Notes under the pieces: generated by a model
What the model was told of the DNA's origin: nothing
The model's database searches: none
What the model saw: only the letters and a program-made list of their open reading frames with translations
NCBI GenBank assembly: GCA_035626995.1
Contig: DASPMP010000019.1
Span: 9,080 to 73,079, forward strand
From: Gemmatimonadaceae bacterium
GTDB taxonomy: Bacteria; Gemmatimonadota; Gemmatimonadetes; Gemmatimonadales; Gemmatimonadaceae
DNA: 64,000 bases
Direction of reading: 5' to 3'
Shown: positions 19,955 to 38,529 of the stretch, piece by piece
Position numbering within the stretch: the stretch's first letter is position 1
Layout of the letters: the number at the start of each line of letters is the position of its first letter
Translations under genes and position numbers: made by a program

Positions 19955-22089
19955 CGTTCGACGCGCAGGACGTGTGCGACCTGGTCGGTGGGATCGAGAC
20001 GGACGTAGTTGCGTGGCCCCTGCCAGGTGAACCGTGCGCCACTGATCAGGTCGTGCACCACATACGGCTCGTCCGGGGCGATTCCCATCTGCTCGAGGGG
20101 AACATGCACCATCGTGGCCTGCGGATTCTTCGGGTCGAGGTTCACGGCGATCAGGACATCCGGATCATCGCTCGCCTCGATTGTGCTCGCGGCAACGGCC
20201 CGTGACGCCTGAGGCCTGACGCCCGGCGTGCCAGCCTTCCGATAGAAGAGAATCTGTTCGTTCTCGGACAGATGGAATGTGAGATTCCCGAACCGCTGTA
20301 GCGCCGGTGTTTCACGGCGCACGCGGTTCAGCAGCGTCACGTCTTCATTGATGTTGCCAGGCGCATTCCAGTCGCGCGGACGCAGCTCGTACTTCTCCGA
20401 GTTCATGTACTCTTCGCTTCCCGGCTTTACCGGCTCGTTTTCGATGAGCTCGAAGCCGGAGTAGATGCCATAGAGCGGCGACAGCGTTGCGGCGAGCACA
20501 AGACGCGCACGAAACGCGGGACGACCTCCCATGACGAGATACTCGTTGAGGATGTCCGGCGTGTTTGCAAAGAGGTTGCCGCGATAGTACTCGGTCACCG
20601 GCGGCGTATTCAGCTCCGTCATATAGTCGCTCAGGTCCCACGCCGCATTCTTCCAGGTGAAGTACGTGTACGACATGGTGAAGCCGAGCTTGGCGAGGCT
20701 CTTCATGCGCTTCGGCCGCGTGAATGCTTCGGCGAAGAAGATGACGTCCGGGTACTCGCTCTGGACGTCCGCGATCACCCACTCCCAGAACGCCAGTGGC
20801 TTGGTGTGGGGATTGTCGACGCGGAACGTTTTCACACCGTGCGACGCCCAGTACAGGAGAACGTCTCGACATGCTTCCCACAGCGCACGACGGTCCGCGC
20901 ACCAGAAATTGATCGGATAAATGTCCTGGTACTTCTTCGGCGGGTTCTCGGCGTACGCGATGGTTCCGTCTGGACGCTGGTGAAACCAGTCGGGGTGTTC
21001 CTTCACCCACGGGTGATCCGGCGAACACTGGAGCGCGTAGTCGAGTGCGACTTCGATGCTTCTTGCCTGTGCCGCATCGACGAACGCGTCGAAGTCCGCG
21101 ATCGTACCGAGGGCCGGCTCGATGGCATCGTGCCCTCCGTGCTCGTTGCCGATAGCCCATGGGCTGCCAACGTCGTTCGCCTCCGGAGTCAGCGTGTTGT
21201 TCTTTCCCTTCCGGAAGGTGCGACCGATCGGGTGAATCGGTGGCAGGTACACGACGTCGAACCCGAGCTTCGCAATACGATCGAGCTCACCGATGGCGGT
21301 GCGGAAGGTTCCGTGTTTTCCGGAACGATCGGTGGACCGCGGGAAGAACTCATACCACGAGGCGAATTGCGCGCGTTCGCGGTCCACGACGATGCTGAGC
21401 TCCCGCGCGTATCGGGTGAGGTCACGCGGCAGGTAGTTCTCGCGCATCAAGGTGGCGAGCTCCGGCTCGAGCGCGCGCCGCACGACCGCATCGCTCGGTG
21501 CGGTCTTCACACCATCGAAGGCCTTTGCCGATTGTGTCAGTGAGGCGCGTGCGGGGCCTCGCGTCGCGCGCCGCGCCGCGGCCTTCACGAGTTGCGCGGC
21601 TTCCATGAGCTCGACGTGCACGTCGACGCCGGCGTCCACTTTCTTGCGGAACCCGGCACGCCACGTCTCCCACACGTCGGTCCAGGCCTCGACCGTATAG
21701 TGCCACCGTCCCACGCGGTCGACCGTGAACTCCGCGAACCACCGATCGACATCGTTATCGAACTCCATCGGGACGGCGCGCGCAGCTTCACCGGGTGCGC
21801 GTACGACCAGGTGCGCTGCCAGCGTATCGTGGCCGTCCTTGATGACGTCGGCGCCCACACGCACGACATCGCCGACAATGCGCTTGACCGGATAGCGGCC
21901 GCAGTCCAGCTCCGGTGTGACGCATTCGATTGTGAGATGGGCCAGCCCGCGTGATGGCGAGCGTCGATCAGTCGTTCTGTCGGGCACGGGAGCGCTGGTT
22001 AATGCAAGAAAGCGGCCCCCTTGGGGGCCAGGGAAAAGGGAACGGGAAACGGGAAACGGGAAACACGAAGAGGATGGGGCTGTAGCCAA
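19951..22089 (-). CDS. glgE: Alpha-1,4-glucan:maltose-1-phosphate maltosyltransferase
   Basis: ELDCGRYPVKRIVGDVVRVGADVIKDGHD, VYLPPIHPIGRTFRKGKNN, GSPWAIGNEHGGHDAIEPALGT, FRVDNPHTKP, FFAEAFTRP. The start is uncertain: the ATG at 22089 reads through the heptad repeat, and an alternative GTG lies at 21985-21987. Confidence 0.9.
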
Positions 22090-22244
22090 AAGAAGATGGA
22101 CCCGGGAAAAGCGATAGGGTCAGGGATGGGGATGTTTATCTATCCCCTCCCCCGACCCTTTCCCTTTTCCCGCTTCCCTGTCCCCTCTGTTCCCGTTCCC
22201 TGTTCCCTCTGTTCCCGTTCCCTGTTCCCTGTTCCCTGTTCCCT
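22024..22244. repeat. Inverted heptad-repeat element. The left arm is (GGGAAAC)n on the + strand; the right arm is (GTTCCCT)n, i.e. (AGGGAAC)n on the - strand; a central palindrome lies between them.
   Basis: 22024-22060 has six G3-5 tracts with 3-4 nt loops. 22144-22243 has 15 C3-5 tracts with 1-6 nt loops. The element fills the spacer between the Vgb-like gene stop and glgE. Confidence 0.9.
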
Positions 22245-23259
22245 ATGGTACCAGTGCCTTGATCTCCCGCGGGATGTTCATGCGCCCGATCGTGCCCGCA
22301 TCAGTCCCGAACCACAGTTCGCGAGTCGCACGGTTGAAGGTCATGTGTCGGATGACGTTCCGTCCCTGCGGCGTCAGGCTCTGCACCGGAATGTTCGCGA
22401 CCCACTGCCGGGTCTTCGTATCGAACGCGACCAGCTTGTTCGGGCTGACCCCCGTCTCCGCGATCCAGATGCGATCCTGGTCGTCCTGTGCGTGGGCGTA
22501 CGGCTGTGCCGCGGGACCGGATGGCATCGGGTATTCCGTGAACTTTCCGGTCTTCGGGTCGAGGTGATTCAGGAATCCACGATAATCGCCAAACCAGATC
22601 TGGCCATCCGCCGTGATTGCAATCCGGCGAGCCCGCATCCGCTCGTCGGGATGCACGAACTCCTTGTATTCCAGCGTCTTCGGGTCGATGGTCGCGATCT
22701 TGTTCGTCTGCCACAAGTTGAAGTACGGCCGATTGTTCTGGTCGATCACGACGCCATATGGATTCGTGCGCCCTTCCCCTGGCGGACGCCACAGCTTGAT
22801 CTCACCCGTCTTCGGATCGATGCGACCGATCCGCTGCGACTGCTGGGCGGTGAACCAGCCGACCCCGTTCTTGTCAAACAGCAAAGTGTGCGGGTCACGC
22901 ACGGTCGTATCCGGCATCATGAAGTTCTTCAGCTCGCCGGTTTCGGGATTCAGCTGGACGATGCGACCATTCCTGTTCCCCGTGAACCAGATGCCGCCGT
23001 TGGGATCCGTGACGATGTTGTGCGGGTTCGTCCCGGCGTCGATTTCGTAGCGCTTGAAGTCACCCGATTTCGCGTCGAGATAAGCGACATAGTTCCCCGT
23101 CTGTCCGACAAACCAAACTCTGCCCTTTGTGTCCATGATGGGATCGCGGGGGCGGGTGCGCTCCCACGGAACCGTGAATTCCTTTGGTTCGAGGGCATTG
23201 TCCTGGGCGCCGAGCGGCAACGCCAACACGCTAAGAGCAGCAACGCGAAGCACTTTCAT
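22243..23259 (-). CDS. Secreted seven-bladed beta-propeller protein, virginiamycin B lyase (Vgb)-like
   Basis: The start is taken at MKVLRVAALSVLALPLGAQ (signal peptide). About 40-aa blades repeat in the pattern G.(I/V)WF(T/V)...N.I..(L/I)D..TG..K.(Y/F)..P, as in streptogramin-lyase-type propellers. Confidence 0.75.
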   Translation of the reverse strand: MKVLRVAALSVLALPLGAQDNALEPKEFTVPWERTRPRDPIMDTKGRVWFVGQTGNYVAYLDAKSGDFKRYEIDAGTNPHNIVTDPNGGIWFTGNRNGRIVQLNPETGELKNFMMPDTTVRDPHTLLFDKNGVGWFTAQQSQRIGRIDPKTGEIKLWRPPGEGRTNPYGVVIDQNNRPYFNLWQTNKIATIDPKTLEYKEFVHPDERMRARRIAITADGQIWFGDYRGFLNHLDPKTGKFTEYPMPSGPAAQPYAHAQDDQDRIWIAETGVSPNKLVAFDTKTRQWVANIPVQSLTPQGRNVIRHMTFNRATRELWFGTDAGTIGRMNIPREIKALVP

Positions 23260-23410
23260 GATGTCCAACCCTGGCAGAGTGTCCGAATACCGTACGCATA
23301 GCCCTCGCAAAGCGCTATGCGTCCCATGAAACATTTGGGGCTTCCTGCGCCTAGTAAATAGCGCTTTGATTCATGAGACAGCCCTGTTCCGCACTACAGT
23401 TTCCCTTCAT

Positions 23411-38332: not shown

Positions 38333-38529
38333 AGCTCTCGGCCATCGGCCCTCGGCCCTAAAGCCCTTGGCCGTAAGGCCTTTGGCCGTAAGCCGCTGGC
38401 AGTAAGCTCTTGGCCGTAAGCTCTTGGCCGTAAGCTCTTGGCCGTAAGCTCTTGGCCGTAAGCTCTTGGCAGTAAGCTTTTGGACCTTAGCTCTTGGCGG
38501 TCAGCTCTTGGCTGTTAGCGTTTGCCGCG
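38333..38529. repeat. Tandem array of about 14 copies of a 14-nt unit (AAGCTCTTGGCCGT; complement GCCAAGAGCTTACG-like)
   Basis: Four perfect copies at 38404-38459, flanked by progressively degenerate copies. The HD-GYP stop codon (38487-38489) lies inside the array. Confidence 0.95.

What the first reader, a model, noticed from the sequence alone, without database searches (positions are those of the whole stretch)
22024..22244. Inverted GGGAAAC / AGGGAAC heptad arrays upstream of glgE: dense G-quadruplex motifs or a ~220-nt hairpin
The plus strand at 22024-22060 reads GGGGG-cca-GGG-aaaa-GGG-aac-GGG-aaac-GGG-aaac-GGG: six G-tracts with 3-4 nt loops.

The segment 22144-22243 has 15 C3-5 tracts with 1-6 nt loops (..TTCCCTGTTCCCTGTTCCCT). 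That gives 15 G-tracts on the minus strand, which is the sense strand of both flanking genes. The last tract overlaps the TAG stop (22243-22245) of the Vgb-like gene.

Both arms satisfy the canonical G3+N1-7 quadruplex rule. The arms are also partly complementary to each other, and they flank a central palindrome (AGGGTC..GGGGAT-gtttatct-ATCCCC..GACCCT, about 22117-22160).

The element fills the whole spacer in front of the eight-gene alpha-glucan operon. The longest glgE ORF reads through the left arm (..SSCFPFPVSRSLFPGPQGG..). It is a strong candidate for a structure-based switch or insulator controlling glycogen/trehalose gene expression.
Basis: partly seen in the sequence, partly recalled or inferred. 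Interest (0 to 1): 0.62.

Follow-up and report, generated by a model that had tools for sequence, protein, structure and literature searches.

The report
Gene-less heptamer-repeat hairpin before glgE
The G-rich and C-rich heptamer arrays upstream of glgE are real and fold into one ~100-bp hairpin, but they are one copy of a repeat class found at hundreds of gene junctions in this soil Gemmatimonadaceae genome and its relatives, not a dedicated glycogen-gene switch.

Summary
There are six G-tracts at 22024-22060 (+) and 15 C-tracts at 22144-22243 (+), with a central palindrome. The predicted hairpin is -148.5 kcal/mol (z -7.5). The element begins on the TAG of the Vgb-like gene. The true glgE start is GTG 21987, conserved in five congeners, not the TTG at 22089 inside the left arm.

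It is not specific to glgE. The genome holds about 260 arrays of 7-8-nt units, about 70% between genes. G-tract units recur as inverted pairs at six or more other junctions, always with the G-rich arm first. Octamer units that cannot form quadruplexes build equally stable hairpins. The glgE spacer is empty in three of five congeners and in other genera. One congener has a hairpin at the same place, built from its own unit (GGGGACA).

With quadruplex energies included, the full RNA still folds as the hairpin. Only the isolated G arm forms G4s.

This matches the known G-rich heptamer repeats of Xanthomonas and Nostoc (Rehm 2015) and the paired arrays of Geobacter. Verdict: a new member of a known, poorly understood kind.

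One extra lead: the same units enclose four-helix-bundle (23S-IVS-protein) genes, in 7 of 9 copies in this genome and 18 of 23 in relatives. No RNase III gene was found in the order.

The parts
22243..22245 (-). TAG stop codon of the Vgb-lyase-family beta-propeller gene (22243-23334). Its G is the first base of the first G-tract.
   Evidence: The C-terminus ...ALVP* is conserved in the array-free ortholog of G002.
22142..22243 (-). 5' arm on the sense (minus) strand. It is G-rich, with 15 G-tracts. The outer part is GGGAACA-type heptads. The inner part is degenerate and forms half of the central palindrome.
   Evidence: A metatranscriptome contig (X2) runs without mismatch from the Vgb-like gene to 22173, 70 nt into this arm.
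22134..22141 (.). Apical loop of the hairpin (8 nt between the palindrome arms).
22027..22133 (-). 3' arm on the sense strand. It is C/U-rich. It holds perfect GTTTCCC heptads at 22031-22064 and degenerate heptads further in. It pairs with the G-rich arm along its whole length.
21998..22030 (-). Small GC-rich hairpin (TGGCCCCC-AA-GGGGGCCG) followed by CTTTCTT. It looks like an intrinsic terminator and lies between the array element and glgE.
   Evidence: 2 terminator-like sites found against 0.7 expected; sequence
22003..22008 (-). CTTGCA motif, 16-18 nt upstream of the glgE start. CTTGC is invariant in the five congeners (the sixth base is A in four, G in G001). Candidate promoter or initiation signal; function not tested.
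21985..21987 (-). Conserved GTG start codon of glgE (M-P-[DEQ]-R-[TNS]-[TS]-D-R-R-S-P...). The real intergenic spacer is therefore 21988-22242, 255 nt.
   Evidence: The Pfam GlgE N/S domain starts at residue 52 of the long ORF.

Best explanation
The element is a gene-less ('orphan') copy of a lineage-wide class of intergenic hairpins. Each hairpin is built from two inverted arrays of a short tandem unit, here GGGAACA.

It sits in the 3' untranslated spacer of the Vgb-like gene. It starts on that gene's stop codon and ends just before a small native GC hairpin and the glgE start region.

It is transcribed from the Vgb-like gene. The G-rich arm emerges first and could transiently form RNA G-quadruplexes. 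Once the C-rich arm is made, the RNA collapses into one ~100-bp imperfect hairpin.

Its effect on expression, if any, is the generic effect of a very stable 3' hairpin. It would protect the upstream mRNA from 3' exonucleases and impede read-through into glgE. It is not a signal-responsive switch for alpha-glucan genes.

Shown here: the sequence anatomy; membership of the family; the position and strand rules; absence from most orthologous loci; the predicted folds; and transcription into the arm.

Inferred: the structure in vivo and any effect on mRNA stability or read-through.
For: Genome-wide class:
- TRF finds 136 period-7 and 180 period-8 loci.
- 181 of 261 arrays are intergenic, while only about 12% of the genome is non-coding.
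- Arrays are half as dense between divergent genes (0.30/kb) as between tandem or convergent genes (0.58-0.70/kb).

G-tract inverted pairs:
- They occur at C19:6837-6968, C160:1622-1807, C187:26373-27026, C238:1759-1916 and C8:1900-2066, as well as at this locus.
- All have the G-rich arm first. About 13 pairs listed for congeners show the same polarity.

Position rule for G-tract units:
- After a stop codon the G-rich strand is the sense strand in 23 cases against 4.
- Before a start codon the C-rich strand is the sense strand in 9 cases against 1.
- This locus obeys both rules.

Hairpin rather than G4:
- The fold is -148.5 kcal/mol with z -7.45.
- With G4 energies included the full RNA has no G4. 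The isolated G arm goes from -1.7 to -36.3 kcal/mol by forming G4s.
- GTCGGCTT/AAGCCGAC octamer pairs have no G-tracts and fold at -0.4 to -0.7 kcal/mol per nt, like this element. Their polarity is 17 to 0.

Not conserved:
- Arrays are absent from the orthologous spacer in G002, G004 and G007 and in four other genera.
- G001 has a hairpin at the same place with a different unit.

Other points:
- The central 101 nt are unique in the genome.
- Rfam gives only sub-threshold matches to generic miRNA-precursor hairpins.
- An RNA contig runs 70 nt into the G arm.
Against: - No transcript ends were mapped. The RNA evidence is one low-depth assembled contig, which may contain DNA and which stops inside a repeat.
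Read-through into glgE and copy-number polymorphism could not be tested.
- The large hairpin has no U-tract, so it does not fit the classical intrinsic-terminator model.
- A second hairpin at the same spacer in G001 could mean this junction is under selection for such a structure.
- The strict arm polarity and the species-specific units are not explained by a purely passive hairpin.
Confidence: 0.6

Rival explanations
1. Partner-protein system, analogous to REPIN/RAYT. The hairpin is an orphan copy of a repeat family whose gene-bearing copy encodes a four-helix-bundle protein (Pfam PF05635, the 23S rRNA intervening-sequence protein family; Avd-like in my recollection). That protein would recognise, maintain or spread arrays of its own unit. 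The glgE hairpin would belong to the family of the cassette at G000:C187.
For: The unit of this hairpin also encloses a PF05635 gene: (GGAACAG)14 | gene | (CTGTTCC)14 at C187:26373-27026.

7 of 9 PF05635 genes in this genome lie between inverted repeats, six of them tandem arrays. Under a stricter test, 9 of 2849 short genes are enclosed in this way, and 4 of those 9 are PF05635 genes.

In relatives, 18 of 23 unselected PF05635 loci are enclosed by inverted repeats 410-600 nt apart.

The unit differs between species and matches the arms of a PF05635 gene in the same genome:
- G001: GGGGACR at C226 and at its glgE spacer.
- G004: GGGAAGC, GGGAATA and GGGAAGT.
- G003: GGGAACN and GGGTACA.

Protein clades track the class of unit:
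- 42-54% identity among the four proteins with GGG[AG]A[CT]N arms.
- 49% between the two with GGGAAG[CT] arms.
- 50-61% among the three with 12-14-nt units.
- 17-39% between clades.

Against: - The largest family, GCCGAGR with 93 arrays, has no partner gene in this assembly and rarely forms inverted pairs: 5 of 93, no more than the control. The AAACCCTG and AATGCRGG families also lack a partner gene in this assembly.
- The loops of orphan hairpins show no remnant of such a gene.
- No transposase, no target-site duplication and no movement were seen.
- The protein sample is small (14) and partly chosen because arrays lay nearby.
- Co-inheritance of a gene with its arms would also make protein clade and unit correlate.
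- Earlier scan notes say part of a 'protein reads its repeat' claim fell on re-check.
Confidence: 0.3
2. G-quadruplex switch. G4 formation in the arms, on the non-template DNA strand or in the RNA, controls transcription or translation of glgE and the alpha-glucan operon.
For: - Both arms meet the canonical motif. G4Hunter is +1.46 and -1.52.
- The isolated G arm is predicted to form three to four tandem RNA G4s.
- Related GGGAATC and GGGGAYT heptamers form K+-dependent G4s in vitro (PMC4692102).
- The G-rich strand is the non-template strand behind the Vgb-like gene.
Against: - The element is absent from most orthologous glgE loci.
- Units without G-tracts build the same architecture.
- The hairpin outcompetes G4 in the full transcript.
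- There is no preference for four units: runs of 3, 4, 5 and 6 units number 7, 8, 3 and 2.
- Rehm et al. also could not find a regulatory role.
Confidence: 0.07
3. A neutral by-product of replication slippage. Short tandem units expand wherever selection is weak, that is at gene 3' ends. They have no function and no dispersal system.
For: - Arrays are degenerate towards the centre of the element.
- Copy number and unit variants differ from locus to locus.
- Presence and absence turn over quickly among congeners.
- Arrays avoid divergent, promoter-bearing spacers.
Against: Independent slippage does not explain four things:
- why many loci in one genome share one unit while sister species use another;
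- why arrays come as inverted pairs far more often than the control;
- why polarity is invariant;
- why PF05635 genes sit in the loops.
Confidence: 0.15
4. Arrays of binding sites for a global DNA-binding regulator, as proposed for the paired octa- and heptanucleotide arrays of Geobacter metallireducens.
For: - Paired arrays on opposite strands with variable spacing were read this way in PMC2700814.
- Periodic 7-8-nt units suit oligomeric binders.
Against: - The adjacent genes have no shared function.
- Arrays lie mostly at gene 3' ends and are depleted between divergent genes, where promoters lie.
- The units differ between sister species.
Confidence: 0.08

Closest known systems
G-rich heptameric repeats of Xanthomonas (GGGAATC) and Nostoc (GGGGAYT): Rehm et al. 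2015, PLoS One, PMC4692102
   Same: - A 7-nt unit with a G3-4 tract, dispersed genome-wide with a bias to intergenic DNA.
[quoted passage not shown]
- Under-represented between divergent genes.
- 70-75 'convergent' inverted pairs per Xanthomonas genome, which the authors say could form stem-loops that compete with G4s.
- Length and sequence vary between close relatives.
- Not tied to one functional class of genes.

   Different: - A different phylum (Gemmatimonadota) and a different unit (GGGAACA).
- No preference for four units here.
- This genome has several co-existing unit families, including octamers and 12-14-mers that cannot form G4s.
- The units are species-specific within one genus.
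- The link to four-helix-bundle genes did not come up in the sections and term searches I read of that paper.
Paired tandem octa-, nona- and heptanucleotide arrays of Geobacter metallireducens: Aklujkar et al. 2009, PMC2700814
   Same: - Multicopy intergenic elements made of 3-5 tandem short units.
- They occur as pairs on opposite strands with variable spacing.
- A GGGACCG heptamer x4 is found at 49 sites.
   Different: - They were interpreted as binding sites for global regulators.
- Their arrays are shorter.
- My term search of that paper found no fold analysis and no mention of four-helix-bundle genes.
ORF-bearing 23S rRNA intervening sequences (Coxiella burnetii, Leptospira): Warrier et al. 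2016, PMC4990558
   Same: - A stable stem formed by terminal inverted repeats. The Coxiella IVS is 428 nt with a 28-bp stem and dG of -143 kcal/mol.
- The gene-bearing relatives of this hairpin in the same genome carry the same protein family in the loop. Their arms lie 410-600 nt apart.
   Different: - This locus has no ORF in its loop.
- It lies between protein-coding genes, not in rRNA.
- Its stem is made of tandem heptamers about 100 bp long.
- The enzyme that excises the IVS, RNase III, was not detected in this genome or in 30 relatives.
REP/BIME and REPIN elements of Proteobacteria (from my own knowledge; PMC3116915 was listed but not read)
   Same: - Abundant intergenic palindromic repeats at gene 3' ends.
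- They form RNA hairpins known to stabilise upstream mRNA.
- REPINs depend on a single-copy partner gene (RAYT).
   Different: - REPs are copies of one conserved sequence of about 35 nt, not tandem arrays.
- Their partner is a transposase-like enzyme. PF05635 proteins have no known catalytic activity.

Membership tests
G-rich heptameric SSR class (Rehm et al. 2015) | Tandem 7-nt unit containing a G3+ tract, with four or more units able to meet the G4 motif | tested here: met
   6 and 15 tracts, loops of 1-6 nt, G4Hunter +1.46 and -1.52
G-rich heptameric SSR class (Rehm et al. 2015) | Many copies across the genome with a bias to non-coding DNA | tested here: met
   35 pattern hits against 2 for the control. 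About 15 G3-heptad arrays. 181 of 261 arrays of 7-8-nt units are intergenic.
G-rich heptameric SSR class (Rehm et al. 2015) | [quoted passage not shown] | tested here: met
   This locus: the G arm starts on the TAG, and the C arm ends 44 nt before the GTG. Genome-wide for G-tract units: 23:4 after stops and 9:1 before starts.
G-rich heptameric SSR class (Rehm et al. 2015) | Occurs as convergent inverted pairs | tested here: met
   (7 of 15 G3-heptad arrays have an inverted partner within 250 nt; control 0)
G-rich heptameric SSR class (Rehm et al. 2015) | Preference for exactly four units | tested here: not met
   Runs of 3, 4, 5, 6, 7, 8 and 10 units number 7, 8, 3, 2, 1, 2 and 1. The numbers are small.
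G-rich heptameric SSR class (Rehm et al. 2015) | K+-dependent quadruplex formation in vitro | not testable with these tools
   Only the energy model is available. The isolated G arm is predicted to form G4s; the full transcript is not.
IVS-like four-helix-bundle cassette | PF05635 / TIGR02436 gene in the loop | tested here: not met
   The loop region is about 8-90 nt, unique in the genome, and has no similarity to PF05635 proteins. The sister copy at C187 does carry the gene.
IVS-like four-helix-bundle cassette | Inverted arms that form a long stem | tested here: met
IVS-like four-helix-bundle cassette | Excision by RNase III | tested here: inconclusive
   No RNase III domain (PF14622, PF00636) in this genome or in 30 relatives, and no signature motif in the six-frame translation. 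Another enzyme could act.
Intrinsic (Rho-independent) terminator | GC-rich stem followed directly by a U-tract | tested here: not met
   The large hairpin has no U-tract. Only the separate small hairpin at 22030-22013 meets the simple consensus.
MITE / REP-type mobile repeat | A conserved full-length sequence shared between copies, with terminal inverted repeats and target-site duplications | tested here: not met
   Copies share only the unit. The central 101 nt are unique. The boundaries fall on stop codons and show no duplication.
Known cis-regulatory RNA (Rfam) | Match above the gathering score | tested here: not met
   Best score 35 bits against thresholds of 64-168, all to eukaryotic miRNA-precursor hairpins and on both strands.

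The most novel reading that the evidence does not exclude
Inverted short-repeat hairpins and four-helix-bundle (PF05635) genes form one genetic system in Gemmatimonadales. Each protein clade has its own repeat unit. Gene-bearing cassettes coexist with many gene-less hairpins of the same unit at gene junctions. The unit changes together, in the cassette and in the orphans, between sister species (GGGAACA in this genome, GGGGACA in G001, including at this same glgE spacer). The glgE hairpin would then be a non-autonomous member of a protein-dependent repeat family, in a lineage that appears to lack RNase III.
Probability: 0.3. Interest if true: 0.75.

Novelty: new member of a known kind. Interest (0 to 1): 0.36.

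Why it matters
For glgE itself the result is sobering. The striking structure in front of the alpha-glucan operon is a generic junction repeat. It should not be annotated as a glycogen/trehalose regulator, and the glgE start should be set at GTG 21987.

More broadly, the case extends quadruplex-capable heptamer repeats from Xanthomonas, Nostoc and Geobacter to Gemmatimonadota. It shows that in one genome the same architecture is built from units that can and cannot form G4s. That points to the hairpin, or to a unit-reading partner, as the common denominator rather than the quadruplex.

The species-specific units, the invariant arm polarity, the co-variation with four-helix-bundle genes and the apparent lack of RNase III together give concrete handles on an old open question: what spreads and maintains these repeats.

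Tried and rejected
- Rfam at a permissive threshold gave only sub-threshold eukaryotic miRNA-hairpin models on both strands. No riboswitch or leader was found.
- A sigma-70 promoter scan of 21700-22600 found none.
- blastn of the central 101 nt and of the proximal flank against the genome showed both to be unique. The element is therefore not a dispersed MITE.
- blastx of five orphan loops against 14 four-helix-bundle proteins gave only noise. There is no evidence that orphans arose by deletion of the gene.
- I considered RNase III processing by analogy with rRNA intervening sequences and down-weighted it. Neither RNase III Pfam domain nor the signature motif is present in this genome, and 0 of 31 genomes of the order match PF14622.
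- The preference for four units reported by Rehm et al. was not seen.
- Two array-flanked genes both end in ...ALVP*. The proteins are unrelated, and the array-free ortholog has the same ending, so this is coincidence.
- GC skew was not a usable way to orient the octamer families, whose skew is near zero. I used the canonical unit orientation instead.
- Mapping reads from further metagenomes, to look for copy-number polymorphism and empty sites, was not possible.
Full report
OBSERVATION

On the + strand, TRF reports (GGGAAAC)x5.0 at 22031-22064 and (CCCTGTT)x12.6 at 22156-22244. A direct count gives six G-tracts in 22024-22064 and fifteen C-tracts in 22144-22243, with loops of 1-6 nt. Mean G4Hunter scores are +1.46 and -1.52. 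Part of the right arm is the longest stretch with |G4Hunter| >= 1.5 in the whole 4.09-Mb, 64.8% G+C genome.

The arms are 81-88% complementary. They enclose a palindrome at 22098-22133 / 22142-22177 with an 8-nt loop.

Both flanking genes lie on the minus strand:
- a Vgb-lyase-family beta-propeller gene (22243-23334);
- glgE, which carries the GlgE N/S, alpha-amylase and GlgE C-terminal domains.

The TAG of the first gene shares its G with the first G-tract. Downstream of glgE lie seven more co-directional alpha-glucan genes.

THE glgE START

The longest ORF begins at TTG 22089, inside the left arm. That extension is not real. In five species of the genus the protein starts at a conserved GTG (window 21987), encoding M-P-[DEQ]-R-[TNS]-[TS]-D-R-R-S-P. 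Synonymous CGA/AGA changes are present, conservation collapses upstream, and a CTTGCA motif lies 16-18 nt before the GTG. The true spacer is therefore 255 nt (21988-22242).

The repeat element fills 22027-22243. The remaining 40 nt hold a small GC hairpin with a T-rich tail (22030-21998), which meets a simple terminator consensus, and the CTTGCA motif.

FOLDING

The sense-strand RNA (21980-22250, minus) folds into one long imperfect hairpin of -148.5 kcal/mol, with z = -7.45 and 0 of 200 shuffles as good. The + strand folded as DNA gives -68.6 kcal/mol, z -6.2.

With ViennaRNA's G-quadruplex energies switched on, neither full-length transcript uses a G4. The isolated G-rich arm, which is what emerges first during transcription out of the Vgb-like gene, has almost no canonical structure (-1.7 kcal/mol). 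It reaches -36.3 kcal/mol by forming three to four tandem G4s.

So a quadruplex is at best a kinetic, co-transcriptional intermediate. The hairpin is the equilibrium state.

Rfam gives only sub-threshold hits to eukaryotic miRNA-precursor models on both strands. That is the signature of a generic long hairpin.

IT IS ONE COPY OF A GENOME-WIDE CLASS

TRF on the whole assembly finds 136 loci of period 7 and 180 of period 8. The main units are GCCGAGA (82 loci), AAGCCGAC (68), AAGCTGAC (20), GCCGAGG (18) and GGGAACA (10 or more). There are also many arrays of period 12-14.

With a crude GC3-based gene call (3516 genes, 88% coding), 181 of 261 arrays are cleanly intergenic. Most of the rest touch ORF ends. 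Array density is 0.70/kb in convergent spacers, 0.58/kb in tandem spacers and 0.30/kb in divergent spacers.

G-tract heptads form inverted pairs at C19:6837-6968, C160:1622-1807, C187:26373-27026, C238:1759-1916 and C8:1900-2066, besides this locus. Single arms occur elsewhere. Every pair has the G-rich arm 5' on both strands.

It follows that after a stop codon the G-rich strand is the sense strand (23:4 for G-tract units). Before a start codon the C-rich strand is the sense strand (9:1). The glgE element obeys both rules.

The arrays often begin on a stop codon and end 8-25 nt before the next start codon.

Inverted partners within 250 nt are found for:
- 7 of 15 G3-heptad arrays;
- 7 of 21 CAGGGTTT arrays;
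- 20 of 87 AAGCNGAC arrays;
- 5 of 15 AATGCRGG arrays;
- 5 of 93 GCCGAGR arrays, against 6 for that family in the backwards-probe control; the four families above score 0 in that control.

The octamer pairs cannot form G4s. They fold as well as this element (-0.4 to -0.7 kcal/mol per nt, z -3 to -12). Their polarity is also invariant, 17:0 with GTCNGCTT first.

The shared property of the class is therefore the inverted-array hairpin, not the quadruplex.

NOT A CONSERVED glgE ELEMENT

The Vgb-like/glgE junction is syntenic in the genus. Its spacer is 55-80 nt with no array in G002, G004 and G007. In four other genera of the family the upstream gene differs and no array is present.

G001 does have an inverted pair at the same place, again starting just after the stop codon. 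It is built from GGGGACA, and its centre is unrelated to the centre here.

The central 101 nt of the element here are unique in the genome.

TAXONOMIC SPREAD

The pattern (GGGNANN)3GGG occurs in 112 of 301 genomes sampled across the phylum. The hits are concentrated in the order that contains this genome, with up to about 600 per genome. The pattern is almost absent from the other classes.

Within the genus each species has its own units:
- GGGAACA in this genome;
- GGGGACA in G001;
- GGGAAGC, GGGAATA and GGGAAGT in G004;
- GGGTACA in G005 and G003.

About 13 close inverted pairs are listed for these genomes, and all have the G arm first.

TRANSCRIPTION

A soil metatranscriptome (run X2) holds a 673-nt contig identical to 22173-22845. 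That covers the 3' part of the Vgb-like gene and 70 nt of the G-rich arm. It holds no contig over glgE.

This shows that RNA, or contaminating DNA, reads into the arm.

COMPARISON WITH WHAT IS KNOWN

Rehm et al. 2015 (PMC4692102) described GGGAATC repeats in Xanthomonas and GGGGAYT repeats in Nostoc with the same properties:
- a bias to intergenic DNA;
- position within 50 bp after stop codons on the coding strand, sometimes overlapping the stop, or within 50 bp upstream of starts on the non-coding strand;
- depletion between divergent genes;
- 70-75 'convergent' inverted pairs per Xanthomonas genome, which could form stem-loops competing with G4s;
- K+-dependent G4s in vitro;
- no identified function.

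Aklujkar et al. 2009 (PMC2700814) listed paired tandem octa-, nona- and heptanucleotide arrays on opposite strands in Geobacter metallireducens, and a GGGACCG x4 element at 49 sites.

The element here passes every sequence-level test for the Rehm class except the preference for four units. I found no report of these repeats for Gemmatimonadota in the library.

Verdict: a new member of a known, functionally unexplained kind.

A LEAD BEYOND THE FINDING

The longest GGGAACA pair, at C187, encloses a 128-aa gene of Pfam PF05635 / TIGR02436. This is the four-helix-bundle '23S rRNA intervening-sequence protein' family, to which the DGR protein Avd also belongs by my recollection.

Of nine such genes in this genome, six lie between inverted tandem arrays and a seventh between a non-tandem inverted repeat. 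The array units are GGGAACA, GCTTGTCR, a 12-mer, two 14-mers and GGCAGGC/CGTCACG. Under a stricter test, 9 of 2849 short genes are enclosed in this way, and 4 of those 9 are PF05635 genes.

In relatives, 18 of 23 unselected PF05635 loci are enclosed by inverted repeats 410-600 nt apart, nearly all of them arrays. This layout recalls the Coxiella 23S IVS: 428 nt, a 28-bp stem, and the ORF in the loop (PMC4990558).

The units that flank these genes are the units that occur as orphans in the same genome. In G001 the arms of the cassette at C226 are GGGGACR, the unit of its glgE hairpin. In G004 three cassettes carry the three house units.

Protein clades follow the class of unit. The C187 protein and the G001:C226 protein are 54% identical.

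Earlier notes of this scan reported the gene-plus-arms layout in many phyla. They also warned that part of a stronger 'protein reads its repeat' claim fell on re-check.

Evidence against a universal pairing:
- the largest family, GCCGAGR, has no partner gene here;
- orphan loops contain no gene remnants;
- my protein sample is small and partly biased.

RNase III, which excises rRNA intervening sequences, was not detectable in this genome or in 30 relatives. That weakens an RNase III processing model. It may also help explain why such long double-stranded RNA stems are tolerated.

CONCLUSION

What is shown:
- a real, non-random inverted heptamer-array hairpin with G4-capable arms;
- placed exactly between a stop codon and the glgE start region;
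- a member of a lineage-wide class of repeats;
- not conserved at this locus.

What is inferred:
- it acts, if at all, as a generic stable 3' RNA structure (confidence 0.6);
- a G4 switch for glgE is unlikely (0.07);
- a partner-protein system is the most interesting reading still open (about 0.3).

Noticed in passing
G000:C187:26373-27026 (outside the window); also C164:1219-1812, C49:3715-4475, C106:11577-12228, C226:3207-4224, C152:32700-33000, C41:2150-2900: Four-helix-bundle genes (PF05635 / TIGR02436) sit in the loop between inverted tandem arrays, each copy with a different unit. This holds for 7 of 9 copies in this genome and 18 of 23 unselected copies in relatives.
   Followed up: partly
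G000:C249:37446-38039: A 136-aa GxxExxY protein gene (TIGR04256, 136 bits) is likewise enclosed by inverted ACGCAGAG octamer arrays. A second small-gene family may share the layout.
   Followed up: partly
whole genome G000 and 30 relatives of the order: No RNase III domain (PF14622 or PF00636) was detected, and no signature motif. Controls ring in 8 of 14 well-known genomes. The order may lack canonical RNase III.
   Followed up: partly
genus-wide (G001-G010): Each species has its own dominant G-tract heptamer: GGGAACA, GGGGACA, GGGAAGC, GGGAATA, GGGAAGT or GGGTACA. Each is spread over many loci. This implies genome-wide homogenisation or lineage-specific spread.
   Followed up: partly
window 22003-22008 and 21985-21987: A CTTGCA motif lies 16-18 nt upstream of the conserved GTG start of glgE in all five congeners (CTTGC invariant). 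No Shine-Dalgarno sequence or sigma-70 promoter is evident. It could be a lineage-specific promoter or initiation signal, or mark a leaderless mRNA.
   Followed up: no
G000:C19:6974 and window 22243: Two unrelated genes both end in ...ALVP-TAG and are followed directly by G3-heptad arrays. The proteins share no similarity, and the array-free ortholog keeps ALVP, so this is probably coincidence.
   Followed up: yes
L044 1062-1153 and L048 1055-1170 (relatives G020, G026): Gene-less hairpins of (GGGGCAC)n / (GGCACGGA)n with 15-36-nt loops lie about 250 nt from a four-helix-bundle cassette that has different arms. Orphans and cassettes can cluster.
   Followed up: no
L003, L006, L008 (G007, G006, G009): In three draft genomes the contig ends at or within about 100 nt of the 5' end of glgE. 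This is the kind of assembly break that a repeat array in the spacer would cause, so presence of the element there is unknown.
   Followed up: no
G000:C203:1889-2019, C18:6337-6449: In some octamer hairpins the two arms carry different units, for example GGCTTGTC against GAGAAGCT. These pair only through a shared 5-bp core and wobble pairs. Each arm seems to be homogenised on its own.
   Followed up: no
window 38361-38512: The 14-nt array AAGCTCTTGGCCGT x10.8 belongs to the same unit family as the arms of the four-helix-bundle cassette at C226 (TACGGCCAAGCGCT).
   Followed up: no
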